Below are positions 397 through 36,329 of a DNA stretch of 36,329 bases, one piece after another. Position 1 is the stretch's first letter. Every line of letters starts with the position of its first letter. A program made the position numbers and the translations under genes. Source of the stretch: a virus. Taxonomy: Duplodnaviria; Caudoviricetes. Below the pieces are notes generated by a model, which had not been told where the DNA came from, did not search any database, and saw only the letters and a program-made list of their open reading frames with translations. Where the stretch lies: the IMG/VR virus record IMGVR_UViG_3300035042_000092, positions 1 to 36,329 of that record. One strand, written 5' to 3'.

Positions 397-418
397 GGTT
401 TCTCCTGTGTTTTAGCAA

Positions 419-444
419 GGGCAGGCACAGGGGCCTGCCCCTAC
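419..444 (-). repeat. GTAG-family REP-like palindrome GTAGGGGCAGGCCCCTGTGCCTGCCC
   Basis: GTAG tetranucleotide plus imperfect palindrome; 415-446 is identical to 4945-4976 (32 bp). Confidence 0.75.
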
Positions 445-464
445 GGTTTATGCGTCGCTGCCCA

Positions 465-3057: not shown

Positions 3058-4554
3058 TTATGCTCCTGTTGTTTCCGGCGCGATGGCTTCGGTGAGGTTG
3101 TCGCCTTCGCGCATGCGTTGCTCTTTGACGCGCTGGCGGTGGTTGCGCTCGAAGTTGCCGCCGTTAAGTTGGGCTGTTTCCTGCGCGATGGTGCTGAACC
3201 CTTCATCCACGCGGGTGGCGGCGGCTTTGACTTCGACCAGCTCGTTGATCTGGCCGCGTCCGGGGCCTGTCCACTTGGTGCCGAGGTACGCATGGCGGAT
3301 GGCGGGGTCGGTAAAGTAACCGGGCGCGCTGATGCGCCCTTTTGCCACGGCTTCATCCATGAATAATTCGTACACGGGCTGGCAGAAGTAGTCAGCGAGC
3401 CAGGTGCGACGCTTGGTGAAGTATTTCCACGCTTCGTTGAGGGCGGCGCGGCTGGCGCTGTAGCTGGAGGTAAAGTGCTTGACCAGGAGTTCAAACGGTA
3501 GCTCCAGGCGCACACCGATCTGGCGCATGATGGCGAGGACGAAGGGGTCGAAGTTCTGGTTCGGGCGTCCGGGGTTGGCGGTTTCGATGCTTTCGCCCTG
3601 GGCGAGATCGACCACCATGCCGTTGCCGAGGTTCAAGGGGTTCTTGGTGTCTGCCGGGGCTTGACCGGCGGGGCTGTAGGCACCAGCACCGTTGGCAAAC
3701 GGCCCCTGCCCTGATTCTGATTTTACAAACACGGTAAACATGCTGCTGACCACAGCGGCCATTATTTCGGCCTCGGTGTAGCGGCCCAGCTGTTTGACCA
3801 GCTCGATAATGGGGGCAAGGTACGGCACCCCGCGCGATTGATCGGGGCGCAGGGTGAAAAAGTTTTGTATTACCTGACGACGCCCGGACTGCTTACCGAA
3901 TACATCGACGATATCCCATTCCTGCGCACGGTAGAGGGCGCTGCCGGGGTGGTATTTCATGATGTGGATTTTGCTGGGTGCGCCGTCTGCATCGCGTTCG
4001 ATACCACCGGCAAGGCCGGGGCGGTCGGCGCAGTTGCCCTGATTGCCTACGCGGTCGGCCTCGACTATTTTGAGCTTGAGTTCGTAGGGTGATTCGGGGC
4101 GTTGACGCCAGGGTGTGAGGGTGAAGACGTCGCCGTTTTCGAGGGTGGAGCGGAACACCAGCTCTTGCAAGCCGTAAAAGTTGAGGGTGCGGTTCATGTC
4201 GCAGTGTTTGGCGAACAGGGCGAACTCGCGCTCGGTCCTGGATTCCCAGCGGTCGGCTTCTTCCTGGCTGAGGCGCAGGATGTCGCGGTCGATGGTGGAT
4301 TGCAGGGTAAGCCCGCTGCCCACCACGCTGGTGATGTTGGTTTCTACCGCGCCACCGGCAAGGCCGTTGTTGCGAATCAGGTCGCGCGAGTGCTGGCGCA
4401 GCGTGGGCAGATCGGCAAGGGTGTCGGCGTCGGCGTCGCCGGAGGTTACTTGCCAGTTTGCAAAGGCACGGCGGCCGCGATCCGCGCCGGTATAGGCGTT
4501 GGTTACGCGGGGGTATTGTTTGCCGATGCGGCAGTTGCTGCTGGGGGTAATCAT
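3058..4554 (-). CDS. Portal protein, lambda family
   Basis: LRQHSRDLIRNN, RPDQSRGVP, SYSASRAAL, FCQPVY motifs; 498 aa. Confidence 0.93.
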   Translation of the reverse strand: MITPSSNCRIGKQYPRVTNAYTGADRGRRAFANWQVTSGDADADTLADLPTLRQHSRDLIRNNGLAGGAVETNITSVVGSGLTLQSTIDRDILRLSQEEADRWESRTEREFALFAKHCDMNRTLNFYGLQELVFRSTLENGDVFTLTPWRQRPESPYELKLKIVEADRVGNQGNCADRPGLAGGIERDADGAPSKIHIMKYHPGSALYRAQEWDIVDVFGKQSGRRQVIQNFFTLRPDQSRGVPYLAPIIELVKQLGRYTEAEIMAAVVSSMFTVFVKSESGQGPFANGAGAYSPAGQAPADTKNPLNLGNGMVVDLAQGESIETANPGRPNQNFDPFVLAIMRQIGVRLELPFELLVKHFTSSYSASRAALNEAWKYFTKRRTWLADYFCQPVYELFMDEAVAKGRISAPGYFTDPAIRHAYLGTKWTGPGRGQINELVEVKAAATRVDEGFSTIAQETAQLNGGNFERNHRQRVKEQRMREGDNLTEAIAPETTGA

Positions 4555-4769: not shown

Positions 4770-4912
4770 TAAAGGCTCCGCGCGTTGCAAAAAAGAGTTT
4801 TTTTGTAATCGTGCGGCTATTATGCGGGGTATTTTATAGGGGAGAAAGTGGGCAATGGTGTGTATATGTAGGGTTTTGCGGAGAGATTTACGCTAGATGT
4901 GGTGGTTTGGGG

Positions 4913-4950
4913 AGGTTCAAGGGGCAAGGTTTCAGGTTCAAGGGGCAAGG
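4913..4950. repeat. Degenerate 7-nt tandem repeat (NNNNAGG)
   Basis: aggttcaaggggcaaggtttcaggttcaagg; near-identical tract at 8750-8780, related tracts at ~13266-13297 and (reversed) ~15935-15968. Confidence 0.6.
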
Positions 4951-5013
4951 GCAGGCACAGGGGCCTGCCCCTACGGGTGGGGTTGTAGGGTGGGCATTGC
5001 CCACCGGGGTTAT
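4949..5013. repeat. Back-to-back pair of GTAG REP-like palindromes
   Basis: Minus-strand GTAGGGGCAGGCCCCTGTGCCTGCCC (4949-4974) and plus-strand GTAGGGTGGGCATTGCCCACC (4985-5005). Confidence 0.75.
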
Positions 5014-6976: not shown

Positions 6977-7011
6977 GGGGTTGTAGGGTGGGCATTGCCC
7001 ACCGGGGTTAT
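6977..7011 (+). repeat. REP-containing 35-bp direct repeat, copy of 4979-5013
   Basis: ggggttgtagggtgggcattgcccaccggggttat at both positions. Confidence 0.85.
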
Positions 7012-7420: not shown

Positions 7421-8731
7421 TTATGCGCGCGCTTTGCTGATCTGGTCGAAGGTTTTGCCGGTGGATTGGAGGGTGGCGGTTTTGCCGGTGAAATTTTGCC
7501 AGCGTTGGATGATTACGTCGCAGTATTTTGGGTCAAGCTCGAGGCCGTAGCATATGCGCCCGGTTTTTTCTGCGGCTATGAGCGTGGTGCCGGAGCCAAG
7601 AAAAAGATCAAGTACACCCTGCCCGCGCCTGCTGCTGTTTTTGATGGCGCGTACCACCAGGTCTACTGGCTTCATGGTCGGGTGCAAATCGTTCACTTTT
7701 GTTTTTGATATCTCCCAGATGGATGGCAACTCTATCTCCCAAACGTCACGCTCGTTTTTCTTGCCGTACCAGTTGTGCTCCATGTTCCAGCCATAGAATA
7801 TGGGGTCAAAATCGTCGGCATAACCGGTGATTATTGGTTCGTATAGCGATTTATAGTCTGAGTTTGAAAGGTTTATGTTGTTCTTTTTCCAGACAATCAT
7901 GCTGCGCCAGCGCAAGCCTTGGACATTTATCGCAGAGAGAATTCTGTCGATGCCGAGGCGATAAAAACAGATATACCATGGGCCAGCGCAAAACTCCCTG
8001 ACGGCGAGGCAGATATTGCGAAGAAACTTGTCACCTTCCTCGCGGGAAAGATTATCGTTTTCTATTTTTTTATGCTGTGAGTTCTTGGGGCGCTTTCCTC
8101 CTGTTTTTGATGGCGGCGAGCCGACAAAATCCATGAGATAAGGCGGATCAGTAAAACACATATCTGCTTTGCCCCCCCCCAGGAGCAAATCAAGGTTTTC
8201 GTGGGATAGGCTGTCGCCACACATGATGCGGTGGCCATCACAGCACCAGATGTCGCCGAGGGCGGTAACAACCTCTCCTTCCTCTGGCACTTCCGGCACT
8301 TCGTCTGGATCTGTTTCGCCCAGGGTGTCTGGGATGATCTGCATCAGTTCGCCGACCTCTACATCTGAAAAACCGGTGAGAGCTATTTCAAATTCCTGGT
8401 TGAGCAGCTGCTGGAATTCATGCGCGAGGGTTTCGTTGTCCCAGCTCGAGTTCTCCGCCAGCTTATTATCCGCAATCACATACGCGCGTTTTTGTGCTTC
8501 GCTCAGATGTCCGAGGCGGATGCAGGGGACTTGATCGATGCCGAGTTGCTTGGCGGCCATTACTCTGCCGTGACCTGCTATGATGCCGCCGTCTTTGTCG
8601 ATCAGAACGGGGTTGGTGAAGCCGAACTCCTGGATGCTGTTGGCTACCTGGGTGATTTGTTCGGCGCTGTGGGTGCGGCTGTTGCGCGCGTATGGGGTGA
8701 GGTCGTTGATGGGTATTTGTTCGATTTTCAT
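7421..8731 (-). CDS. ParB-N domain fused to N6A/N4C DNA methyltransferase
   Basis: PYARNSRTHS..IIAGHGR..IADNKL (ParB-like); TDPPY, HPTMKPV, VLDLFLGSGTTLIAA; start at MKIEQI. Confidence 0.92.
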   Translation of the reverse strand: MKIEQIPINDLTPYARNSRTHSAEQITQVANSIQEFGFTNPVLIDKDGGIIAGHGRVMAAKQLGIDQVPCIRLGHLSEAQKRAYVIADNKLAENSSWDNETLAHEFQQLLNQEFEIALTGFSDVEVGELMQIIPDTLGETDPDEVPEVPEEGEVVTALGDIWCCDGHRIMCGDSLSHENLDLLLGGGKADMCFTDPPYLMDFVGSPPSKTGGKRPKNSQHKKIENDNLSREEGDKFLRNICLAVREFCAGPWYICFYRLGIDRILSAINVQGLRWRSMIVWKKNNINLSNSDYKSLYEPIITGYADDFDPIFYGWNMEHNWYGKKNERDVWEIELPSIWEISKTKVNDLHPTMKPVDLVVRAIKNSSRRGQGVLDLFLGSGTTLIAAEKTGRICYGLELDPKYCDVIIQRWQNFTGKTATLQSTGKTFDQISKARA

Positions 8732-8781
8732 GGGGTTTCTCCGGTGGTTAGGTTCAAGGTGCAAGGTTTCAGGTTCAAGGT

Positions 8782-8802
8782 GGTGGGACGTGCCCACCCT
8801 AC
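8782..8802 (-). repeat. GTAG REP-like palindrome GTAGGGTGGGCACGTCCCACC
   Basis: Variant of the 4985/6983 element; its TAG is the stop codon of 8799-9056. Confidence 0.7.
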
Positions 8803-11014: not shown

Positions 11015-11041
11015 GGTTTTCCTCCGGTTTCTCCGGTTATC

Positions 11042-11118
11042 GTAGGGGCGCTGCTTGCTGCGCCCTTTGTTGTTTGGTTGCTATCCCGTGCAATGGGCGC
11101 GGCAAGCAGCGCCCCTAC
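11042..11118. repeat. Inverted pair of GTAG REP-like palindromes (REPIN-like)
   Basis: GTAGGGGCGCTGCTTGCTGCGCCC (11042-11065) and its near reverse complement ending at 11118. Confidence 0.75.
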
Positions 11119-11960
11119 GCGGTTTCGTCCATTTCTTCGGTGTCTTCTTCCGGCTCGCCTTCGATCACCACATCAACCTCGTCGCTGGTGGCGATGGCGT
11201 TGCAGGCGGCATCTATGGTTTGTTCGATGAGGGCTTCGAGTTCTGGTTGGGTCTGGATCTGGCCGCCGGTGGTGTGGATGATTGTTGGTACCTGCTTGAT
11301 GATGTGGGCGGCGATGGTGTCGCGGGTGATGCCTGTCCAGGCGCAGACTTCGGCGTCGGCTTGCTCGCGGGTGATGAGCAGGCCCATCTCTTTTTGTTCT
11401 TCGCGCTCTTTTTTGCGTCGGTTGAGGGCGATGATCTCGGCTTCGTCTTTGGATTTTTTGAGGGCGTTTTCTTCGATGGTGCCTAGGGCGTCGCGCTGGT
11501 GGCGGATGTAGCTTTCGTAGTAGCGCTGGCCGCCTTCGGGGTGGTTCTTCCACGCTTCGAACGCGGCGGTGGTGATGGAGCGATCGGGCGCGAGCTGCAA
11601 GGATCCTTTTTTGGCGTGGTTGGTGAGGGTCTGGCGCGAGGATAGATCCCAGCCTTTGTCCTTCAGGTGGTGGTACATCTCGGTGGAGTTGCGGAACAGG
11701 ATATCTGTGGGGTGGTACGCGGGTCTGGATGTCTGGGGCTCGGGCGCGAGGTACTGCTGTTCCAGGCGCTCGACGAGTTCGGTCAGACCTTCGCGCGCGG
11801 CGTCGTAGTCTTTCTTGCGCGCGGCGGTGCTGTCTTCGTTGTATGCGGTCAGGGTGCGCTGGCGCGCGTTGTAGAAGGCGGTGAGTTCGGCTTTTTCTTC
11901 CTGCGTGCAGTGCTGCTGCAGGTCTTTTACGCGGGTTAGGAGGTCTGGTTTTTTGTTCAT
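11115..11960 (-). CDS. Probable terminase small subunit
   Basis: Directly upstream of GpA terminase; coiled coil then GLLITREQAD, as in Nu1-like C-termini; GGAG RBS before MNKKPD. Confidence 0.6.
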   Translation of the reverse strand: MNKKPDLLTRVKDLQQHCTQEEKAELTAFYNARQRTLTAYNEDSTAARKKDYDAAREGLTELVERLEQQYLAPEPQTSRPAYHPTDILFRNSTEMYHHLKDKGWDLSSRQTLTNHAKKGSLQLAPDRSITTAAFEAWKNHPEGGQRYYESYIRHQRDALGTIEENALKKSKDEAEIIALNRRKKEREEQKEMGLLITREQADAEVCAWTGITRDTIAAHIIKQVPTIIHTTGGQIQTQPELEALIEQTIDAACNAIATSDEVDVVIEGEPEEDTEEMDETA

Positions 11961-11972
11961 ACGGCGCTCCAT

Positions 11973-12018
11973 AAAAAAAGCCCGTAAAGCCAGCGTGAGT
12001 GCTGGTGGTTTACGGGCT
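11973..12018 (-). terminator. Intrinsic terminator/attenuator just upstream of the terS-like gene
   Basis: AGCCCGTAAA...TTTACGGGCT stem followed by T-tract on the minus strand. Confidence 0.7.
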
Positions 12019-12061
12019 CCTTTTCAGGGTTGCCGTGGTTCGGGCTTTATTTGGTTGTGGG

Positions 12062-12208
12062 TTAGTGGTTGGTGATTATTTTGATGTTGCCAATTTTGCC
12101 TTCGGGGCTAAAGCTGAGGGTTACCTCGCCCCGCTTGACATGGACGCGGGCGCGCTTGAAGCCTTGCTCAATAGTGCGCTTTTGTTCTTCTGTGATTTCT
12201 GGTCTCAT
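12062..12208 (-). CDS. 48-aa protein, YezD/DUF2292-like pattern (not in ORF track)
   Basis: MRPEITEEQKRTIEQGFKRARVHVKRGEVTLSFSPEGKIGNIKIITNH; GGAGG RBS, ATGA overlap with upstream gene. Confidence 0.6.
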   Translation of the reverse strand: MRPEITEEQKRTIEQGFKRARVHVKRGEVTLSFSPEGKIGNIKIITNH

Positions 12209-12438
12209 TTTGCCTCCGCGAATATTCTTGATGTTGTTCTCAGCCCATTTTCGTGCGCCATTCGATCCATCGCTTTATGGTAAGCAAGTGTCATTTTTTC
12301 GCTGTATTCTTGTGGGTTAGAAAACCCCTCTTTTTTTACTTGTGCTTCAGCTTCGCGGTGCGCGGGTTCTATCAGCTTGTTTATTGCAATTTCATATTCT
12401 GTCAGCTGCTTTTTTTCTTGCTTGTTTTTATTGTGCAT
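12205..12438 (-). CDS. Hypothetical protein
   Basis: 77-aa ORF, AGGAG RBS. Confidence 0.65.
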   Translation of the reverse strand: MHNKNKQEKKQLTEYEIAINKLIEPAHREAEAQVKKEGFSNPQEYSEKMTLAYHKAMDRMAHENGLRTTSRIFAEAK

Positions 12439-12450
12439 AATATCTCCTAC

Positions 12451-12498
12451 AAAAAAGCGCCCGGATTCCTCGCATTGTTGCTGGGATCTCCGGGCGCT
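12451..12498 (-). terminator. Intrinsic terminator/attenuator
   Basis: AGCGCCCGGA...TCCGGGCGCT stem plus T-tract on the minus strand, directly before the next RBS. Confidence 0.7.
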
Positions 12499-12582
12499 GT
12501 GTTGCGGTGCCGGTGGGCTTGGTTTTGGGTTTTGCGTGGCTTGCGCGGGGGCAGTGGCCGGGGTTGGAGAGGCGAAAGATTT

Positions 12583-12996
12583 TTAGGCCAATCTATCAGC
12601 CAGGGCCTTAATTTTCTCCGCCAGAGCTAATAGCTCCGCTTTGCGATCAGGCCACTCATCGATGCGGGTTTCGCCAGGGCTTGGCCGTCCGTCTTCAACC
12701 CACCACTCGACCTCGGCCTCCAGCGCCTCAAAAAAATTGAATTCGACGAGGATATTTTCTGAATCAAACTGAACAGTGACGAACTTTTCTTTTTCGGTTT
12801 CCATATCCACGGGTTTCAGCAATATCGCTAAATCTCCATCACAGAGGGTGACTATTTTGACCTGTCTGGCGATATTATCGACAGCGGCCTCTACTGCGTC
12901 GGCAATTCCAGCGTTAAGGGCTTTTCCAAGTTCATCGCCAATCCAATCAATATCAGCCAAATTAAGATTTTTCGGGCTTGCGAATCTGTCCTCCAT
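12583..12996 (-). CDS. Acidic hypothetical protein, cargo of attC cassette A
   Basis: 137-aa ORF, GAGGAG RBS; its stop (tta) coincides with the cassette start TTAGGCC. Confidence 0.75.
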   Translation of the reverse strand: MEDRFASPKNLNLADIDWIGDELGKALNAGIADAVEAAVDNIARQVKIVTLCDGDLAILLKPVDMETEKEKFVTVQFDSENILVEFNFFEALEAEVEWWVEDGRPSPGETRIDEWPDRKAELLALAEKIKALADRLA

Positions 12997-13017
12997 TTAT
13001 CTTCTCCTCTAAAAATG

Positions 13018-13087
13018 TCCTAACCAAGCGCTTCACTCGGGCCGGGAACCGCTGCGCGGTCCCGGTCCGGTGAGCTTGTCGTTCGCC
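13018..13087 (+). mobile_element. Integron-type attC recombination site
   Basis: TCCTAAC-CAAGC-GCTTCACTCGG...GC-rich hairpin...CCGGTGAGC-TTGTC-GTTCGCC: R''/L''/L'/R' layout with unpaired bases in the left arm. Confidence 0.78.
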
Positions 13088-13093
13088 TCTGGA

Positions 13094-13792
13094 TTATTCC
13101 GTCCTTAGTATTTCAATTTTCCCGACATCGCCGCTCCCGGTGAAGTTTATGCGCACGTGGCCCTGGCTTTGGAATTTGATGCCGACTTCTTCGAGGGCGC
13201 GTTTTAGTTTGCGTTTTTTTTCGATTGTTTCGGATGGTTGTTTGCTCATTTTTTCTCCGTTAAATGCAGGTTGAGGGTTCAGGTTCAAGGTTTCAGGTGG
13301 CTGCTCCTTCATAAAAACTAGCCAGTGCGTAAGCCCCTTTCGTCCTGATAAGTGCCCGAACAGAGGCGGCTGCGGTGCCAGTTTTATAACTTCGCCAATT
13401 TTCACCTGAGTTTCATTCCATTTGAAAATCAGCGTTCCGCCCGGCTCCAAAACTCGCAGGCACTCGGCAAACCCTCGGCGGATATCTTCTTGCCAAGTGT
13501 CGCTCAGCTTGCCGTACTTAGCGGCCAGCCAGCTTTTAGGCCCGGCTCTGACTAGGTGCGGCGGGTCAAATGCGACCAGCTTAAAGGAGTTGTCTTCATA
13601 AGGCAGCGCGCGAAAATCCATCATCACATCAGGTTCGATTTGCAGCGTCCGAGTGCCATCTTTTTTGCCGTGACTTCGGTCTGTTACAGTGATGGTTTCC
13701 GACCTGCAATCACCAAAAATCACATTCTGATTTTTCCGGTCATGCCACATCATCCGGCTGCCGCAACATGGGTCGAGTATTTTTTCCATCAA
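13094..13792 (-). CDS. Phage SAM-dependent (DPPH-type) methyltransferase fused in frame to a 51-aa YezD-like ORF (13094-13249)
   Basis: ILDPCCGSRMMW, FDPPHL, LIFKWNE, THWLVFMK; internal GGAG RBS and ATG at 13249. Confidence 0.85.
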   Translation of the reverse strand: MMEKILDPCCGSRMMWHDRKNQNVIFGDCRSETITVTDRSHGKKDGTRTLQIEPDVMMDFRALPYEDNSFKLVAFDPPHLVRAGPKSWLAAKYGKLSDTWQEDIRRGFAECLRVLEPGGTLIFKWNETQVKIGEVIKLAPQPPLFGHLSGRKGLTHWLVFMKEQPPETLNLNPQPAFNGEKMSKQPSETIEKKRKLKRALEEVGIKFQSQGHVRINFTGSGDVGKIEILRTE

Positions 13793-14787: not shown

Positions 14788-15399
14788 TTATTTAGACTTA
14801 GACATACAGGCAACCGCGTCCAGCCGTTGCCATTCATCGTACAGTTCCGGCGCGTGTACCCGCACCGCCTCGCGCTTTGCCTTGCCTCCCTTCGGACAAC
14901 AGAAACAGGATACGCGGTCTTGCCATTCATACAGCCCGTCCCAGTGGTAGCCAAGCCGCTTGCAGTAAGCCAGGCTGTCCGCCTCGCCCATACCTGCGTC
15001 AATCAGCGGGAACTTGACCGGCCAGCGGCGTTCCTTCATCCACTTGGTTTGAGTCCGCTTCACCTCGTCAGCGGAAAACCCGATGTACTCGGTCTTGTCC
15101 CCCTTGATGTGGCCGATGTACTTCAGGCACGTCCGATGTTTCCTAGCCGTGCACCAGCCTCCGGCAGACTTCGGCCAGCCCCACAGTGCAAGCATTTCCT
15201 CGAAATGGCGGTAGTACCGAACGCGGATTATCCGCAATCCGGTCTTGGCCGTCACAAGGTCGAGGTGCGCCCGCATCTGCGGGAAATCCCACTCCGTCTC
15301 GAAATAGACGACGTGGGACACCGGGACGCCATGCTCAAGCAGTATGTGCAACATGGCGGTGGAGTCTTTGCCACCGCTGAAACTGATAATGTTATTCAT
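14788..15399 (-). CDS. PAPS-reductase-family (PP-loop) protein, cassette cargo
   Basis: ISFSGGKDSTAM, WCT..K, EYIGFSADE..R, FPL, RVSCFCCP. Confidence 0.85.
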   Translation of the reverse strand: MNNIISFSGGKDSTAMLHILLEHGVPVSHVVYFETEWDFPQMRAHLDLVTAKTGLRIIRVRYYRHFEEMLALWGWPKSAGGWCTARKHRTCLKYIGHIKGDKTEYIGFSADEVKRTQTKWMKERRWPVKFPLIDAGMGEADSLAYCKRLGYHWDGLYEWQDRVSCFCCPKGGKAKREAVRVHAPELYDEWQRLDAVACMSKSK

Positions 15400-15524
15400 G
15401 TTCTCTGTCCTCCGATGAAGATGTCAAATCGGGTAGCTGACTTTTGCGCACCTCTGTTTTGCATGTTATCTGTTGCAGTGACAGTCCTTAAGTTAGACCT
15501 CCTATTATCTACTGTTTTTCTCAT
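15396..15524 (-). CDS. 42-aa ORF coupled to the PAPS-reductase-like gene
   Basis: GAGGAG RBS, ATGA overlap at 15396-15399. Confidence 0.45.
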   Translation of the reverse strand: MRKTVDNRRSNLRTVTATDNMQNRGAQKSATRFDIFIGGQRT

Positions 15525-15550
15525 GTAATTCTCCTCTTCTCAGCAGCTCA

Positions 15551-15637
15551 AACTAACAATTAGTTCAAGCGGATGGAATACATCGTCTGCCTTCTAGTGT
15601 TCCGTCCATCAGCCACCGCTTAACATGGTCGTTATGC
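15551..15637 (+). mobile_element. Integron-type attC recombination site (canonical form)
   Basis: AACTAAC-AATTA-GTTCAAGCGGATGG...CCACCGCTTAAC-ATGGTC-GTTATGC; L'' GTTCAAGC vs L' GCTTAAC with the extra C, and an extra A further in. Confidence 0.85.
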
Positions 15638-15880
15638 GTCTTGAATCCAGATTTCTTCGTCATCAACAGACACACTAGACCTAAAACCGCAGTTGGCATC
15701 GACGCACCGCACAGCATCCCCGTCCTGTACATATCCGGCTGGTGCGTCGGTCAACACCTCGACATCGTTTCCGCACCATGGGCATTGCTCAAACTCAAAA
15801 TATTTCCACTCTTTCGATTTGTCGTTTTGACCCGAGCAAAAACAAATCGGGCTGTTTTCTCCACAAACGCAATATCCCAT
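15632..15880 (-). CDS. Cys-rich small protein, cassette cargo
   Basis: 82 aa, CPWC..C...C; GGAGG RBS; stop overlaps the attC R' GTTA. Confidence 0.65.
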   Translation of the reverse strand: MGYCVCGENSPICFCSGQNDKSKEWKYFEFEQCPWCGNDVEVLTDAPAGYVQDGDAVRCVDANCGFRSSVSVDDEEIWIQDA

Positions 15881-15929: not shown

Positions 15930-16627
15930 TGGGTTTTAACCTTGGACCTGACACCTTGAACCTCAGCCTTCGGCGGCTTGCCGCAGCTGCGGCGCCCTTC
16001 CGGACATGGGCCACGTAAACACCCGGGGCCGCAATCTTCGAACAGGACGGGCTCTGCCTGGCGGCACTGATCCAGCATCTGGTATGCCATGGCGCGGATC
16101 TCCCATTGAGCGCGGTTGCAGCAGCGCAGGGCGAAGAAGTGGTGCAGCTCGCGCGCGTTCATGGTGATAACGAGTTTGGTGGTGGCGGCGTTGGGGAGCA
16201 CGAAGCGGGCGTCCTCGGCGGGGATGCCTTCGGCGATTAGGTTCTTATATGCTGCGAAGGCGTTTAGCGTTGCCTTAGCAAAGAAGTCGCGAGCGTCTTT
16301 GTTCCCCATTACAGTGTCAGGCATAACTGCGGCTGGTGCCTCAATATCTGACTCAACATACCGCTGGCTCTGCTGGCTGTAGCTGGCGACGCGGTGGCGC
16401 ACGAGTTGATGGCTGCAGGCGCGGCTGATGCCATCCACGGCGAAGGTGAAACTTGCATGTTCCAGGATGCTGTCGTGCCCGGATGCAAGCACCCGGCGCA
16501 CGAGGGGGCCGGAGCGATCCGGGTGCATGTCGTAGTCGGTGGGCCAATCAGCGTTGTGGGTAATCCACGCGGCGCGGGCTACGGTGCGGGTCGGGTAGTT
16601 GGTGTGGGTGATAAGTTTGACGTTCAT
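15911..16627 (-). CDS. thyX: FAD-dependent thymidylate synthase
   Basis: GHDSILEH, ISRACSHQLVRHRVASYSQQSQRY, EDARFVLP, MNARELHHFFALR, AQWEIR. Confidence 0.96.
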   Translation of the reverse strand: MNVKLITHTNYPTRTVARAAWITHNADWPTDYDMHPDRSGPLVRRVLASGHDSILEHASFTFAVDGISRACSHQLVRHRVASYSQQSQRYVESDIEAPAAVMPDTVMGNKDARDFFAKATLNAFAAYKNLIAEGIPAEDARFVLPNAATTKLVITMNARELHHFFALRCCNRAQWEIRAMAYQMLDQCRQAEPVLFEDCGPGCLRGPCPEGRRSCGKPPKAEVQGVRSKVKTQNNACR

Positions 16628-17042: not shown

Positions 17043-17836
17043 GCCTGGGCCTCCTTCATACGTTTGATCTCGCGCCGGATGTACCAGAGGGCTTTTTCGA
17101 GATCTTGGATGGGGTCGCCTTTTTGCCCTGCGCGCCAGATGTATTTGATGGCGTTGCCGGTGCAGAAGTTCATGTGCTCGGTTATGTCGATGCACTCGAT
17201 GCCGGAGGGGTGGACGGTGTAGTGGGTCGGGTGGTTTACTGCGTCCGGCTTGGGCTTGGTGCCCTGGTGGGCGGTGCCCACCCTGCTTTGGGCGCGTTCT
17301 CCCTTTTTTTTGTCCAGGTTTTTGCGCAGGTTTTCTTTTGCCTGTTCTACCCGTTGGGTGCCGGCGGTTTTTGCTTTTCTTTTATTGTGGTAGTGCCAGC
17401 GCTGATAGCACTTGCGGCACATGCCGCGTGATTCTATTCTAGTTAAGGCGCCGCATTCGGCGCAGTGTTCTTTTTGGTTGCCGCCGCGGTTGGATGGGTA
17501 GTTTGCATCCAGGGTGCCTTCGCGCTCTTCACGTCGGTAGCACTTAGGGCAGAGCCCGCGCCCATGGTTGTGAGTTTCTGCGCCGCAGCTTTTGCATTTT
17601 ATGAGCTTTTTTGCGCTCTTTTGTGCCGGTTTATGCGCCGGTTGCGGCGTTGGCGGCGGAGTTTTTTTATCGTTCTGCTGATTTTCCATAATCTCCCGGG
17701 CAGTCCTTTCAAAGTCGGGATCTCCGGGCTTGATGATCCGCAGGGGGTTGCGTTTGAGCATCTCTTGCTGGTGGATGTGATCCTGCTCGTTTTCTTTGTG
17801 GGGTATGCCGTAACTTCTTTCCATTTTCGCCTCCAC
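17039..17836 (-). CDS. Zinc-finger repeats plus C-terminal DUF3310-like domain
   Basis: Two CxxC..RG(L/M)CxKCY units; DAVNHPTHY..IECID..FCTGNAIKYIWRA..K..QDLEKALWY. Confidence 0.75.
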   Translation of the reverse strand: MEAKMERSYGIPHKENEQDHIHQQEMLKRNPLRIIKPGDPDFERTAREIMENQQNDKKTPPPTPQPAHKPAQKSAKKLIKCKSCGAETHNHGRGLCPKCYRREEREGTLDANYPSNRGGNQKEHCAECGALTRIESRGMCRKCYQRWHYHNKRKAKTAGTQRVEQAKENLRKNLDKKKGERAQSRVGTAHQGTKPKPDAVNHPTHYTVHPSGIECIDITEHMNFCTGNAIKYIWRAGQKGDPIQDLEKALWYIRREIKRMKEAQA

Positions 17837-22280: not shown

Positions 22281-22432
22281 GCTCTCCTCCTCCTCATCGC
22301 TCGCAAGGCACACAGCAGGCCGTGGTAGTAACCGATCAGATAATCTTGGTTGCCCTCTAAACTCCGCAAAAGCTTTCGCTCCTGCCAAGCCAAAACAATC
22401 AAATGCTGCCTTGCAAAACTCTTATCAGCCAT
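22277..22432 (-). CDS. Small hypothetical protein
   Basis: GAGGAGG RBS before MADKSFAR; ATGA overlap downstream. Confidence 0.5.
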   Translation of the reverse strand: MADKSFARQHLIVLAWQERKLLRSLEGNQDYLIGYYHGLLCALRAMRRRRA

Positions 22433-27385: not shown

Positions 27386-27397
27386 AGGTACCTCCAT

Positions 27398-27418
27398 GGT
27401 GGGCAGTGCCCACCCTAC
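27398..27418 (-). repeat. GTAG REP-like palindrome GTAGGGTGGGCACTGCCCACC
   Basis: One mismatch to the 4985/6983 element. Confidence 0.75.
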
Positions 27419-27560
27419 ACCTCAAACTCATACACGGGCAGATCCGGGGCCTCGCCCTGGATCTGGTTTCCCTGGATGTATGCCTTGCTGTTTACCGCCA
27501 CCGCCTGGCCGCGGGCGGTTGCCTTCGCTCGCTTTGGCACCCGTTAAAAGCATGTTCATC

Positions 27561-28607
27561 CTACCTTAAACGCGTCCTGCCCAATAATTTTCTCCGCAAG
27601 TTAAACGTATCGGCATGCCGTGCATGCCCCTCCCACGATGCGATCACAGCTTCAATGTTTTCGGGTGCAGGCTTTCCGGCTGCCTGCTTTCTTTGCATTC
27701 TGCGCAGCTTGCGCTTCATGCGGCGCACGCTGTCTTTCCTGAGCTTCCGGTGAGTGGGCCAGATGCGGTAGCCGAGAAAATCGAGGGGCCTGCCGCCGCC
27801 AATGGAGACGGGATAGACCTGCGTCTTTTCGTTAGTGCGCAAGGAGAGCTTGTCCCAGAGGAAGCCCTCAATGGTTTTTCGCCGGGCGTGAAGGTGGGAC
27901 TTGTCGTGGTGAATGACGCAGAAATCGTCCATGTATCTCAGATATCGGGGCTCTCGCAACTCGTGCTTGGCGAACTGGTCGAGGTCGTGCAGGTAGATAT
28001 TGGCGAAGAGCTGGCTCGTCAGGTTGCCGATGGGGACGCCTCGCGGAAACGGGTCGCCAGGGTCGGCCGTGCTGTCGATGATCTCGTTGAGAAGCCACAG
28101 GGTGTCGGCGCAGGCGATGCGGCGGCGAAGCTGCCCCTTGAGGATCGGGTGGGCGATGTTGGGAAAGTATTTGGCGATATCGGCCTTGAGCACGTAGACG
28201 CAGCCGTGCTCGCGCTTGACCTCGCGCATGAAGGCCTGCGCGCGGTCGGCTCCGGCGTGCGCCCCCTTGCCCGGACGGCAGGCGTAGGTGTCGCGGATGA
28301 ATCGCCGCTCCCAGATCGGCTCGATGGCTCCGACCAGGGCGTGCTGCACGATGCGGTCTTTTAGCGGCAGGGCGGCGACGATGCGCTCCTTGGGCTCGAA
28401 GATGCGAAAGGTGCGGTACGGGCCGGTGCGGTAGCTCTTCCAGATCAGACTGTTCTGGATCTCGATCAGGTTCTCCTCCAGGTTGCGCTCAAAAGCGAGC
28501 ACATCGCCCTGCATGCGCCGCCCCTTGATGACGCGCAGCCACGCCTGGTAGAGCGACTCGAAGGTGATGATCGATGAAAAGATGTCGGTGTAGGTCTTGG
28601 CCATCAT
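27561..28607 (-). CDS. DGR reverse transcriptase
   Basis: EPKER, DRIVQHAL, KADIAKYF, GVPIGNLTSQLFANIYL (DGR-type IG..SQ), RYMDDF, DFLGY; no maturase or endonuclease domain. Confidence 0.96.
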   Translation of the reverse strand: MMAKTYTDIFSSIITFESLYQAWLRVIKGRRMQGDVLAFERNLEENLIEIQNSLIWKSYRTGPYRTFRIFEPKERIVAALPLKDRIVQHALVGAIEPIWERRFIRDTYACRPGKGAHAGADRAQAFMREVKREHGCVYVLKADIAKYFPNIAHPILKGQLRRRIACADTLWLLNEIIDSTADPGDPFPRGVPIGNLTSQLFANIYLHDLDQFAKHELREPRYLRYMDDFCVIHHDKSHLHARRKTIEGFLWDKLSLRTNEKTQVYPVSIGGGRPLDFLGYRIWPTHRKLRKDSVRRMKRKLRRMQRKQAAGKPAPENIEAVIASWEGHARHADTFNLRRKLLGRTRLR

Positions 28608-28770
28608 GAGCCTTGCGGTAAAAGGCGGCCGGGGCGAAGGGTCTCCCCCTGGGATACTGTCTCGCCCCGGCCTGTTCATGTTTTTCGGCGCTTGGCCGAG
28701 GGGTCACGGGTCCTTTCGAAAGTGCACTGGACGTCGCCCCTTAAGGCGCCGACTTCTGGCTGTCTTCGAG

Positions 28771-28887
28771 AGCGGGGCGGAACCCGATGTTCGTGTTCAC
28801 GTTCGAACGCTCATTGTTCAAGTTCAGGGCGAAAGACCCGGCATTCGCACCATTGTTCCAGTTGCCGCCACGGATCGGCAGACGCTC
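28771..28887 (-). repeat. DGR template repeat (TR)
   Basis: 117 nt aligning ungapped to 29326-29442 with 11 mismatches, 10 at TR adenines; 10 AAY codons. Confidence 0.96.
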
Positions 28888-29242
28888 ACGCCTCATGTTT
28901 ACCCGCGCCCCTGTTGGTACTCTTGAACCAACCTCCCACCATGCGGCCGACTTCGTCGAGCTGCCGGCTCCAGACCTCGTACTTCTTGAACGGGAGATAT
29001 TCAAGCTGCATCGCCACCCGAATCTGCGAACGCAGCAGATCGAGCTCAGCATCCAGGTCCTGCATAGTGGTCTTCTTGTGGTAGCGGCGATTGCAAATGA
29101 TGATCAGGCGCAACAGGCTCCACATGCTCTGACGGATCTCCTGCGAAAGCACGTGGCGCTCGGCCTTGGGAAACTGCCGCAGCGCCCCGTACCCGTAGGC
29201 GATCATGTCTTCGCACTTGCGCCTGATCTTCAACTCGTCCAC
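28886..29242 (-). CDS. avd: DGR accessory variability determinant (four-helix bundle)
   Basis: QFPKAERHVLSQEIR, KKTTMQDLDAELDLLR, EVGRMVGGW; between target and TR. Confidence 0.93.
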   Translation of the reverse strand: MDELKIRRKCEDMIAYGYGALRQFPKAERHVLSQEIRQSMWSLLRLIIICNRRYHKKTTMQDLDAELDLLRSQIRVAMQLEYLPFKKYEVWSRQLDEVGRMVGGWFKSTNRGAGKHEA

Positions 29243-29272
29243 GACCACAAAACCTTTCAAGGAAAAGGGCAA

Positions 29273-29290
29273 GACGGGCTATCGCCCGCC
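29273..29290 (-). promoter_or_regulatory. DGR target-recognition hairpin downstream of VR/IMH
   Basis: GGCGGGC-GATA-GCCCGTC, GC-rich stem with GRNA loop, ~24 nt after the target stop. Confidence 0.7.
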
Positions 29291-29313
29291 CCACCAGAAC
29301 ACAGAGAACAGAA

Positions 29314-30399
29314 TTACAGAACGAAAGCGGGGCGGAACCCGATGTCCGTGTACACGAGCGAACGCACATTGCTCAAGTACAGGGCGAAAGACCCGGCATT
29401 CGCACCATTGCCCCAGTTGCCGCCACGGCGCGGCAGACGCTCCCCGGCGTTGCGCATATACACCGTGCCGCGATTCATGTCAGTGGCATGCGGGTGCAAG
29501 CCGAGCTGCTGGAGGATCGCGGGGATCGTCACGCCGTTTGCTGCGGTCAGGCTTTTGTACCAGACACCTGCCGAGGTCGATCCATCGCTTTGGCTGGTGA
29601 CAGCGGTTGCCAGTTGAGGGGCGCCGGTACCATTAGCCCCGGTGGCGTTCCACTTGAGGGTGTTCGCCGTTCCCGGCGCCACAAGGGAGCCGTCCTGCAA
29701 GATTGCCCGCCAGGCGCTGGAACCGGCGGCGTGACTGATGGTGTTGTCGGCGGCGTTGTTGTCGGCGATGACCTGAATCTCTCCGTCGACGATGCGCAGG
29801 CCGCGCACCCACTCCCAGACGTTGCCGACCAGATCGGCGATGCCGCTCGGCTCGCCGTTGTGCCGCCATGAGGCGGGACCCGCGCCGGCCAGGGTGCGGG
29901 CGGTGCCGCTGGCTTCGCCCGGCGTGCCGGCGTCCTGCCGGGGTGCTGTCTCGAAGGTCGCCAGATAGTCGCGGCCGTAATCGGTGTTGCCGTGGATCGA
30001 GTCCGCACCGAACTGCTTGTGGGTCAGAAGCGCGATCGCCGCCCATTCGGCATTGGTCATCATGTGCCAGCCTGCCCCCTTGGCAGTGCAGTAGCCGTCC
30101 GCTTGGTCGTAATTGACTAAGGTTGTCTGATCTTGGCCGGGCAGCGAGAGCGCCATGCCGTCGTGCACGTTGGCGGGGTACTGGGCAACCCATATTTCCG
30201 CCTTCGTCGTGCCGTTGACCACGAAGGCGGGGTGCGGGGTCGCAGGCCACGCCGGGTCGATCGTATCGAGAGTAAACAGGGGGACTCGGCACATGTGGCT
30301 GGGATAGCCCTTGTCGTCGTACATCACGGTTACCTGACCGCCGGTGGCGGCTTCCACGCTCTGGCGCAGACTGTCCTTAATGCTGATGATGATGCTCAC
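29314..30399 (-). CDS. DGR target protein, FGE-sulfatase/C-type-lectin fold; probable receptor-binding tail protein
   Basis: GWHMMTNAEW, ADLVGNVWEW, RGGNW...IGFRPA; VR at the C-terminus; last gene of tail cluster; GTG start after GGAG. Confidence 0.9.
   Translation of the reverse strand: MSIIISIKDSLRQSVEAATGGQVTVMYDDKGYPSHMCRVPLFTLDTIDPAWPATPHPAFVVNGTTKAEIWVAQYPANVHDGMALSLPGQDQTTLVNYDQADGYCTAKGAGWHMMTNAEWAAIALLTHKQFGADSIHGNTDYGRDYLATFETAPRQDAGTPGEASGTARTLAGAGPASWRHNGEPSGIADLVGNVWEWVRGLRIVDGEIQVIADNNAADNTISHAAGSSAWRAILQDGSLVAPGTANTLKWNATGANGTGAPQLATAVTSQSDGSTSAGVWYKSLTAANGVTIPAILQQLGLHPHATDMNRGTVYMRNAGERLPRRGGNWGNGANAGSFALYLSNVRSLVYTDIGFRPAFVL
29326..29442 (-). repeat. DGR variable repeat (VR)
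   Basis: ERLPRRGGNWGNGANAGSFALYLSNVRSLVYTDIGFRPA vs TR ERLPIRGGNWNNGANAGSFALNLNNERSNVNTNIGFRPA. Confidence 0.96.
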
Positions 30400-30401
30400 G
30401 A

Positions 30402-30746
30402 TTATTCTCCTTCGGTTGCGGTGGTGGGCAACGCCCACAGGTTGAGAGTCACGAGATCGGTTTTCAGGGGGTCGAGCCGGCGCTCAATGACGGGAGACCC
30501 GTCCTCGCCGCTCTCCCCGGTTTCTGTATCGGTGTAGGTCGCCGGCGGAATCACGATGTTGGCCACGTACCATCCCGCCCCTCGGCCCTCGACGACGCTG
30601 CCGTCGCCGGAGAGAGAGAGATCGATGGCGGTGGCGACATCCGCCTGCCGGGCGGCCAGGTCGATGGCGCAGTTGCCCACGGTCAGGATGGCGCCCTCCA
30701 GGGCGACCGTCGCATGGCGCCCTTCTGTCATGATGATCTTTTGCAT
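30402..30746 (-). CDS. Tail-associated hypothetical protein
   Basis: 114 aa, AGGAGG RBS, between tail fibre and DGR target. Confidence 0.7.
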   Translation of the reverse strand: MQKIIMTEGRHATVALEGAILTVGNCAIDLAARQADVATAIDLSLSGDGSVVEGRGAGWYVANIVIPPATYTDTETGESGEDGSPVIERRLDPLKTDLVTLNLWALPTTATEGE

Positions 30747-35882: not shown

Positions 35883-36329
35883 AGAGCCGTCCCCGCCTTC
35901 TGGCCTGCGCCTGGCGTTCGCGTTCCTCGAGGGCCCTTGATACCTCGCGTGCCACGGCGCGTTCATCCATGCCGGGCGCCGCATTGATGGTGATCGGCGC
36001 GTTGATGGTGATCGCGGTACCGTGCTCGACCATCTCACTGCCGCTGTGTGCGGGCTGCATCATCGGCTGCACCTTGGCGCTGCCCTGCATCTCAGGCATC
36101 CGCACCGGCTGGACAACAGGCTGCACCTTGGCGCTGCCCTGCATCTCGGGCATCCGCACCGGCTGGACAACAGGCTGCACCTTGGCGCTGCCCTGCATCT
36201 CAGGCATCCGCACCGGCTGGACAACAGGCTGCACCTTGGCGCTGCCCTGCATCTCAGGCATCCGCACCGGCTGGACAACAGGCTGCACCTTGGCGCTGCC
36301 CTGCATCTCAGGCATCCGCACCGGCTGGA
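35875..36329 (-). CDS. 3' end of tail tape measure protein (partial)
   Basis: ITINAPITINAAPGMD..VAREV..RRRGRLYD C-terminus directly upstream of gpU. Confidence 0.8.
   Translation of the reverse strand, partial: QPVRMPEMQGSAKVQPVVQPVRMPEMQGSAKVQPVVQPVRMPEMQGSAKVQPVVQPVRMPEMQGSAKVQPVVQPVRMPEMQGSAKVQPMMQPAHSGSEMVEHGTAITINAPITINAAPGMDERAVAREVSRALEERERQAQARRRGRLYD
36067..36329. repeat. 54-bp in-frame tandem repeat, at least 4.9 copies
   Basis: Units start at 36067, 36121, 36175, 36229, 36283; encodes MPEMQGSAKVQPVVQPVR. Confidence 0.95.

What the first reader, a model, noticed from the sequence alone, without database searches (positions are those of the whole stretch)
12568..13090. Cassette A (12583-13081) splits a perfect hairpin exactly at the attC crossover point
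Seen: deleting 12583-13081 (499 bp, from TTAGGCC to the G of the R' GTT) joins AGAGGCGAAA-GATT-TTTCGCCTCT, a 10-bp perfect stem with a 4-nt loop that resembles a REP hairpin. The cassette start TTAGGCCA matches the complement of its own R'' (TGTCCTAAC gives GTTAGGACA) with one mismatch, as expected of a circular cassette. The base before the crossover is T, not G. Inference: a single-gene cassette integrated into a folded, non-canonical target.
Basis: partly seen in the sequence, partly recalled or inferred. Interest (0 to 1): 0.8.

Follow-up and report, generated by a model that had tools for sequence, protein, structure and literature searches.

The report
Backwards integron cassette splits phage REP
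A 499-base gene cassette in this phage sits inside a small bacterial hairpin repeat and splits it at the cassette's own swap point, so it was likely pasted in once by a host integron enzyme at a site that breaks that enzyme's usual first-base rule.

Summary
Observation confirmed. Removing 12583-13081 gives a 10-bp perfect stem; 2 of 20,000 random deletions did as well. The cuts fall at the attC crossover, within a 2-nt TT overlap. The joined hairpin belongs to a real multi-copy GTAG-type REP family. One independent sample shows the same left flank running into an intact REP of this family; its right flank was not seen. The base before the crossover is T in 205 of 209 family copies, so the target was probably T|TT, not the G|WT of known attG sites. 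The phage has no IntI. The 137-aa orphan gene lies on the attC bottom strand, opposite to bacterial cassettes, as at a second attC here and in a sister phage. Not shown: that the target was folded, an exact empty junction, a circle, or a second split REP (0 of 401 genomes, 0 of 10 viral hits). Known attG targets are double-stranded. Verdict: a real lone cassette (SALIN-like) at an off-rule site, probably a rare one-off; a new variant of a known kind.

The parts
12566..12582 (+). Left half of a GTAG-type REP hairpin (decayed head, arm 12568-12577, loop 12578-12581, T at -1 of the crossover)
   Evidence: 15 of 17 to the family consensus (the 18-nt core was the search key, so only the flanks are unbiased); intact homologue behind the same flank in run X8
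12583..13081 (+). 499-bp gene cassette, written on the attC top strand, from the TTAGGCCA core to the G of the crossover
   Evidence: GC 0.50 against 0.57 for the genome
12583..12996 (-). 137-aa orphan ORF on the attC bottom strand; its TAA stop is the first three bases of the cassette
   Evidence: 5 distant homologues and one at 80%; no Pfam, PHROG, NCBIfam or PDB fold match
13004..13009 (-). Predicted ribosome-binding site GAGGAG, 7 nt before the ATG
   Evidence: sequence
13017..13088 (+). attC site, top strand +: R'' AAC 13022-13024, 5-nt spacer, L'' 13030-13037 with one extra base, L' 13069-13075, 5-nt spacer, G|TT at 13081|13082
   Evidence: bulged bases lie on the arm opposite AAC on the - strand, which marks it as the bottom strand by the rule in PMC5027507
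13082..13092 (+). Right half of the REP hairpin (arm 13082-13090), now serving as a poor R' box (4 of 8)
13094..13249 (-). Small conserved phage gene upstream on the gene strand; in relatives it is followed by another REP type or other repeats
12205..12438 (-). 77-aa ORF downstream on the gene strand
   Evidence: no family
15550..15638 (+). Second attC in the same accessory region, same backwards polarity; crossover 15631|15632
   Evidence: weak fold (z -1.5 and -2.3) but homology with sister phage G002 starts within 3 nt of this crossover

Best explanation
A 499-bp attC cassette with a backwards gene sits inside a split REP hairpin in a temperate phage, and it was likely inserted once, as a circle, by a host integron integrase acting in trans at a T|TT site. 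Shown: the split, the attC, the REP family, the gene orientation, the lack of IntI in the phage. Inferred: IntI bound the folded bottom (-) strand of the circle's attC, cut at AA|C, exchanged one strand with the phage at AA|A in the REP, and replication resolved the junction. The first bases differ (G against T), so the event would be rare. The target most likely acted as an ordinary attG-like duplex; I put a folded target at about one in three. The event would survive because a REP is a dispensable spacer between genes, and because the backwards cassette puts its gene, with its own ribosome-binding site, in line with the phage's leftward operon. The product is predicted to be locked in: left junction T|TT, right R box down from 7 of 8 to 4 of 8.
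For: 10-bp stem on removal, null 2 of 20,000. The 18-nt joined core is absent intact from the window but matches 73 viral stretches; a 24-nt version matches 124 listed of about 790 estimated genome stretches; 11-42 copies per strand in 5 of 5 genomes picked for holding it, control 0. Run X8: a 148-bp contig lies on 12490-12562 and goes on into an intact REP of this family with T before TT. T at that place in 68 of 72 viral and 137 of 137 genome copies. Circle R box 7 of 8. Sister phage G002 is 100% identical to 15629-15815 but carries another attC and gene left of that crossover, a 256-bp cassette at G|TT with an exact R'' match: attC crossovers mark module swaps in this phage group. Phage integrase scores 39 bits against a 265 cut-off for IntI; IntI is in 36 of 101 Desulfobacterota genomes (host not proven). 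G1-to-T1 sites are still cleaved in vitro (PMC2811028). Soil run X4 holds the cassette and both junctions on one contig with different outer flanks.
Against: A first-base mismatch lowers IntI1 recombination 1,000-10,000-fold (PMC2811028), and genomic insertions follow GWT. A canonical G|AT lies 4 nt away in the loop and was not used (sequence). No exact or gapped empty junction in viral or metagenome contigs; no joint skipping the cassette in 8 of 24 listed runs laid. X8 shows only the left flank. The cassette was never seen in an integron or another context. The top strand folds slightly better than the bottom (-21.9 against -20.5), and the first extra base is A on the bottom strand rather than the usual G.
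Confidence: 0.65

Rival explanations
1. The target was a rare G-bearing variant of the REP; IntI inserted at a canonical G|TT and the G later changed to T.
For: Fits the GWT rule. 4 of 72 viral copies have G there; sister REP types ending GTTCGCCCCTAC exist. The window's REP halves carry other decay. A rough product of variant frequency and one later mutation is of the same order as the mismatch penalty.
Against: 0 of 137 genome copies have G; the intact REP in X8 has T; no run laid listed a difference at 12582 (the table was cut).
Confidence: 0.15
2. Another enzyme or break repair joined a cassette circle to the REP through the shared TT, for example an IS110-type recombinase (REP targeting and a 2-nt core are recalled; papers seen only as listings) or repair after a cut at the hairpin.
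For: 2-nt TT overlap at both ends; explains the missing G.
Against: The insert ends fall within 2 nt of the attC crossover, 3 of 499 positions on the circle; the insert encodes no transposase.
Confidence: 0.12
3. The hairpin is a chance join and the gene is an ordinary phage module next to a stray attC.
For: The region is a mosaic with many module borders; exact empty site not found.
Against: Null 2 of 20,000; the join rebuilds a known multi-copy repeat; intact copy behind the same flank.
Confidence: 0.03

Closest known systems
SALIN formed by attC x attG insertion (Loot et al., bioRxiv 10.1101/2022.09.11.507474; parts 1, 3-6 of 6 read)
   Same: Lone cassette with one attC, no integrase nearby, inserted outside an integron at the attC crossover, expressible from a resident promoter.
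   Different: Target is T|TT, not G|WT, and lacks the CRGM motif; target is a REP palindrome; gene is on the bottom strand; lies in a phage, next to a second attC 2.5 kb away.
CALINs and attC sites in phage genomes (Qi et al. 2023, PMC9892861; parts 2-4 of 7 and part 1 of 2 of the supplement read)
   Same: attC sites in phages without IntI, beside DNA methyltransferase genes; 5 of 6 tested were recombined by IntI1.
   Different: In their phage TJE1 genes lie on the top strand; P12002L attC1 is backwards like this one; the parts read mention only 'divergent directions'.
GTAG-type REP repeats (PMC3733652, passages read)
   Same: GTAG head plus short GC-rich stem and small loop, intergenic, multi-copy; REPs are known IS targets.
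   Different: Here the REP is the target of an attC cassette; none of my literature searches returned such a case.
Canonical integron cassette (PMC5027507, PMC4889954; passages read)
   Same: R''-L''-L'-R' fold, AAC/GTT core, extra bases on one arm, cassette start complementary to R''.
   Different: Gene antisense to the top strand with its stop in the R' core; no attI, Pc or intI.

Membership tests
attC site / integron gene cassette | R'' AAC, 5-nt spacer, L'' with extra base, L', spacer, R' GTT, folding into one hairpin | tested here: met
   spacer before GTT is 5 nt, extra base A on the bottom strand
attC site / integron gene cassette | Cassette start complementary to its own R'' | tested here: met
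   7 of 8
attC site / integron gene cassette | Gene on the top strand, ending at R'' (typical, not obligatory) | tested here: not met
   ORF on the bottom strand, stop in the R' core
attC site / integron gene cassette | Recombined by IntI on the bottom strand | not testable with these tools
   needs an attC x attI assay
SALIN | attC-linked gene with no intI nearby | tested here: met
   only tyrosine recombinase found among 32 ORFs scanned is far below the IntI cut-off
SALIN | Single attC, no other att site nearby | tested here: not met
   second attC at 15550-15638; by clustering rules the pair may count as a small CALIN, though cassette A is bounded by REP halves and so arrived alone
attG target | G|WT at the crossover | tested here: not met
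   T|TT
attG target | CRGM at +6 to +9 (hotspots) | tested here: not met
   positions read CTCT (sequence; motif)
attG target | Recombines as double-stranded DNA | not testable with these tools
   needs strand-delivery assay
GTAG-type REP | GTAG head plus short palindrome | tested here: met
   family consensus from 72 viral copies has the GTAG head; the window copy has a decayed GGAG head
GTAG-type REP | Many intergenic copies per genome | tested here: met
   11-42 per strand in 5 of 5 selected genomes, control 0; intergenic position of those copies not checked
Complete integron | intI, attI and Pc | tested here: not met
   no IntI; attI and Pc not searched

The most novel reading that the evidence does not exclude
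Folded REP hairpins serve as a third class of integron acceptor: IntI cuts one base from the loop, where fraying lifts the first-base rule, so the REPs that space phage accessory genes act as safe one-way landing pads for backwards attC cassettes that phages trade with a host integrase.
Probability: 0.2. Interest if true: 0.75.

Novelty: new variant of a known kind. Interest (0 to 1): 0.45.

Why it matters
It is a natural off-target cassette insertion whose target can be rebuilt base by base, and the target breaks the one rule (shared first base, G|WT) that experiments found strict. That gives a ready substrate to test whether environmental integrases or folded targets relax the rule. It also shows how a phage without IntI can gain a gene without harm: a backwards cassette lands between genes and joins the operon. 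If it is a one-off, as my searches suggest, it widens the known range of secondary sites but adds no new system.

Tried and rejected
Exact empty junction: 0 in viral contigs; gapped form 0 in metagenome contigs. Joint skipping the cassette: none in 8 runs laid of 24 listed; all were contigs, which show presence only. Sister phages G001 and G002 replace the whole region and hold no empty site; G003 shares only the methylase. No viral or genome REP locus matched the window flanks; 0 of 401 Desulfobacterota genomes matched 11100-13300. Cassette elsewhere: none in viral, metagenome or genome scans, phages or plasmids, or 401 genomes. REP as hotspot: left-junction motif 0 of 401 genomes; 10 viral hits, none with a right half in the 371-2,505 nt held; right-junction motif 38 matches in 31 of 301 genomes, 20 examined, none an attC. 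How common backwards attC sites are: my model R1 found only training-set sites, the weak L006 site and one further TJE1 site, and rang in 1 of 50 viral records, the training record, so I give no frequency; my scripted scans missed known sites. Protein function: no family, model pLDDT 63, pTM 0.42, no PDB match, Atlas best 0.75. Terminator reading: no T-run after the rebuilt hairpin (sequence); promoter and terminator scans at chance level. A 14 of 17 left-half match at 22385 is not a REP. Top-strand recombination of a normal cassette was rejected: the extra bases mark + as the top strand.

Full report
Setting. The window is a whole single-contig virus record: lambda-type head, P2-type tail, a phage integrase and a diversity-generating retroelement. 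Best sequence holders are oil-field metagenomes. The finding lies in a leftward accessory region right of the terminase genes. That region is a mosaic among relatives and is spaced by GTAG-type hairpins. The host is unknown; Desulfobacterota is a guess from the habitat and from where the repeat occurs, and no prophage relative was found in 401 such genomes.

Observation. All stated features are there. Removing 12583-13081 gives a 10-bp stem; 2 of 20,000 random deletions reach that. The ends share TT, so the crossover is fixed to within 2 nt. The attC at 13017-13088 folds well and has the R''-L''-L'-R' layout on the + strand. Its bulged bases lie opposite AAC on the - strand, which is the bottom strand by the rule in PMC5027507. 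In circular form the R box pairs 7 of 8; as integrated, 4 of 8. The 137-aa ORF is on the bottom strand with its stop in the first three cassette bases.

The target. The joined core is not intact anywhere in the window but is a real repeat: 73 viral stretches, 124 listed genome stretches of about 790 estimated, 11-42 copies per strand in 5 of 5 genomes chosen for holding it, none for the reversed control. Its consensus has a GTAG head. The base before the crossover is T in 68 of 72 viral and 137 of 137 genome copies. In run X8 a 148-bp contig follows 12490-12562 and continues into an intact member of the family, again with T. This is the nearest thing to an empty site. It differs from the window copy at several bases, and only 30 loose letters were shown, so the link to the right flank is unproven. 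Other variants put different repeats at the same border. The exact junction was not found, nor a joint in 8 of 24 runs. Soil run X4 carries the cassette with both junctions on one contig between different outer flanks, and X6 on overlapping contigs, so the filled form is not an assembly error and has moved as a module.

Are these attC sites used? A second attC lies at 15550-15638 with the same polarity. Sister phage G002 is identical to 15629-15815 and differs left of that crossover, where it has its own attC and a 256-bp cassette that starts at G|TT with an exact R'' match. Without it, G002 reads as an ordinary stop codon, C, ribosome site. An unrelated phage (L006) has two strong and two weak backwards attC sites between its genes. 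Of the published phage sites, both tested in TJE1 are normal and P12002L attC1 is backwards. Earlier notes of this scan report backwards phage cassettes many times and one other lone cassette splitting a REP-like element; these are unchecked leads.

Mechanism. The phage integrase is not an IntI, while 36 of 101 Desulfobacterota genomes have one. I infer a host IntI acting in trans on a circular cassette, one strand exchange at AA|C against AA|A, and resolution by replication. Against this, a first-base mismatch costs 1,000-10,000-fold with IntI1, genomic targets follow GWT and are double-stranded, and a G|AT four bases away was passed over. T1 sites are still cleaved in vitro, so a rare event is possible. 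Selection can explain what survived: the REP is dispensable, and the backwards gene with its ribosome site joins the leftward operon. The T|TT left end and weak right R box predict that it is trapped. Whether the target was folded cannot be read from sequence. It has no L box, and I found no second split copy, which argues against a hotspot; those searches covered one REP type only.

Cargo. Six homologues at 28-80%, no family or fold. Most likely a phage accessory protein expressed with its neighbours; no function can be assigned.

Literature. Eight searches returned no paper on a cassette inserted in a REP or on backwards phage cassettes as a class; subscription journals are mostly not covered. 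Seen: Loot preprint, parts 1 and 3-6 of 6, supplements closed; PMC2811028, abstract and sections 13 and 18; PMC9892861, parts 2-4 of 7 and part 1 of 2 of the supplement; passages of PMC3733652, PMC8266576, PMC10127599, PMC4889954, PMC5027507, PMC12901181.

Verdict. It works like a SALIN formed by off-target IntI insertion. It is not a member of the attG class (G|WT and CRGM not met). New variant of a known kind, interest 0.45.

Noticed in passing
window 15550-15638 and 14788-15631: Second backwards attC; homology with G002 begins at its crossover. The module to its left (PAPS-reductase-like gene 14788-15399) starts where homology with G001 ends (14787), at C|TT; whether that is a cassette end is open.
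   Followed up: partly
G002:C1:22160-22415 (L083 about 3330-3595): 256-bp backwards cassette at a canonical G|TT; its 72-aa gene starts inside the attC; removal leaves stop codon, C, ribosome site. Suggests backwards cassettes land at TAA|C gene ends without harm.
   Followed up: partly
L006 2311-3928: Up to four backwards attC sites between small phage genes, two strong (z about -4) and two weak; one holds a ribosome site and ATG in its loop, in frame ahead of a methylase.
   Followed up: partly
window 27561-30438: Diversity-generating retroelement: reverse transcriptase 27561-28679, 121-nt repeats 28767-28887 and 29322-29442 (90%), target ORF 29314-30438 with a weak FGE-sulfatase match.
   Followed up: no
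window 415-446, 4945-5005, 6982-7003, 8778-8802, 11041-11119, 17262-17284, 27394-27419: At least three GTAG-type REP families space the phage genes, and more occur in G001 and G002; none of the 32 ORFs scanned matched a REP transposase family.
   Followed up: partly
window 13094-13792: The methylase ORF reads through into the next 51-aa gene; relative L001 stops after 164 aa, so the 232-aa ORF is likely two genes joined by a lost stop.
   Followed up: partly
window 4908-4943, 8731-8780, 13269-13304, 15935-15971: A family of AGGTTCAAGG/AGGTTTCAGG short repeats marks module borders here and in relatives.
   Followed up: no
window 12676-12974: Run X6 has a 53-bp contig (depth 4) skipping 297 bases inside the cassette ORF at a 7-nt overlap; may be an artefact.
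   Followed up: no
window 35999-36329: Five to six tandem 54-nt units (about 95% alike) at the contig end, in or near a tail gene.
   Followed up: no
L307 1461-1520: Third attC in phage TJE1 found by model R1, normal orientation.
   Followed up: no
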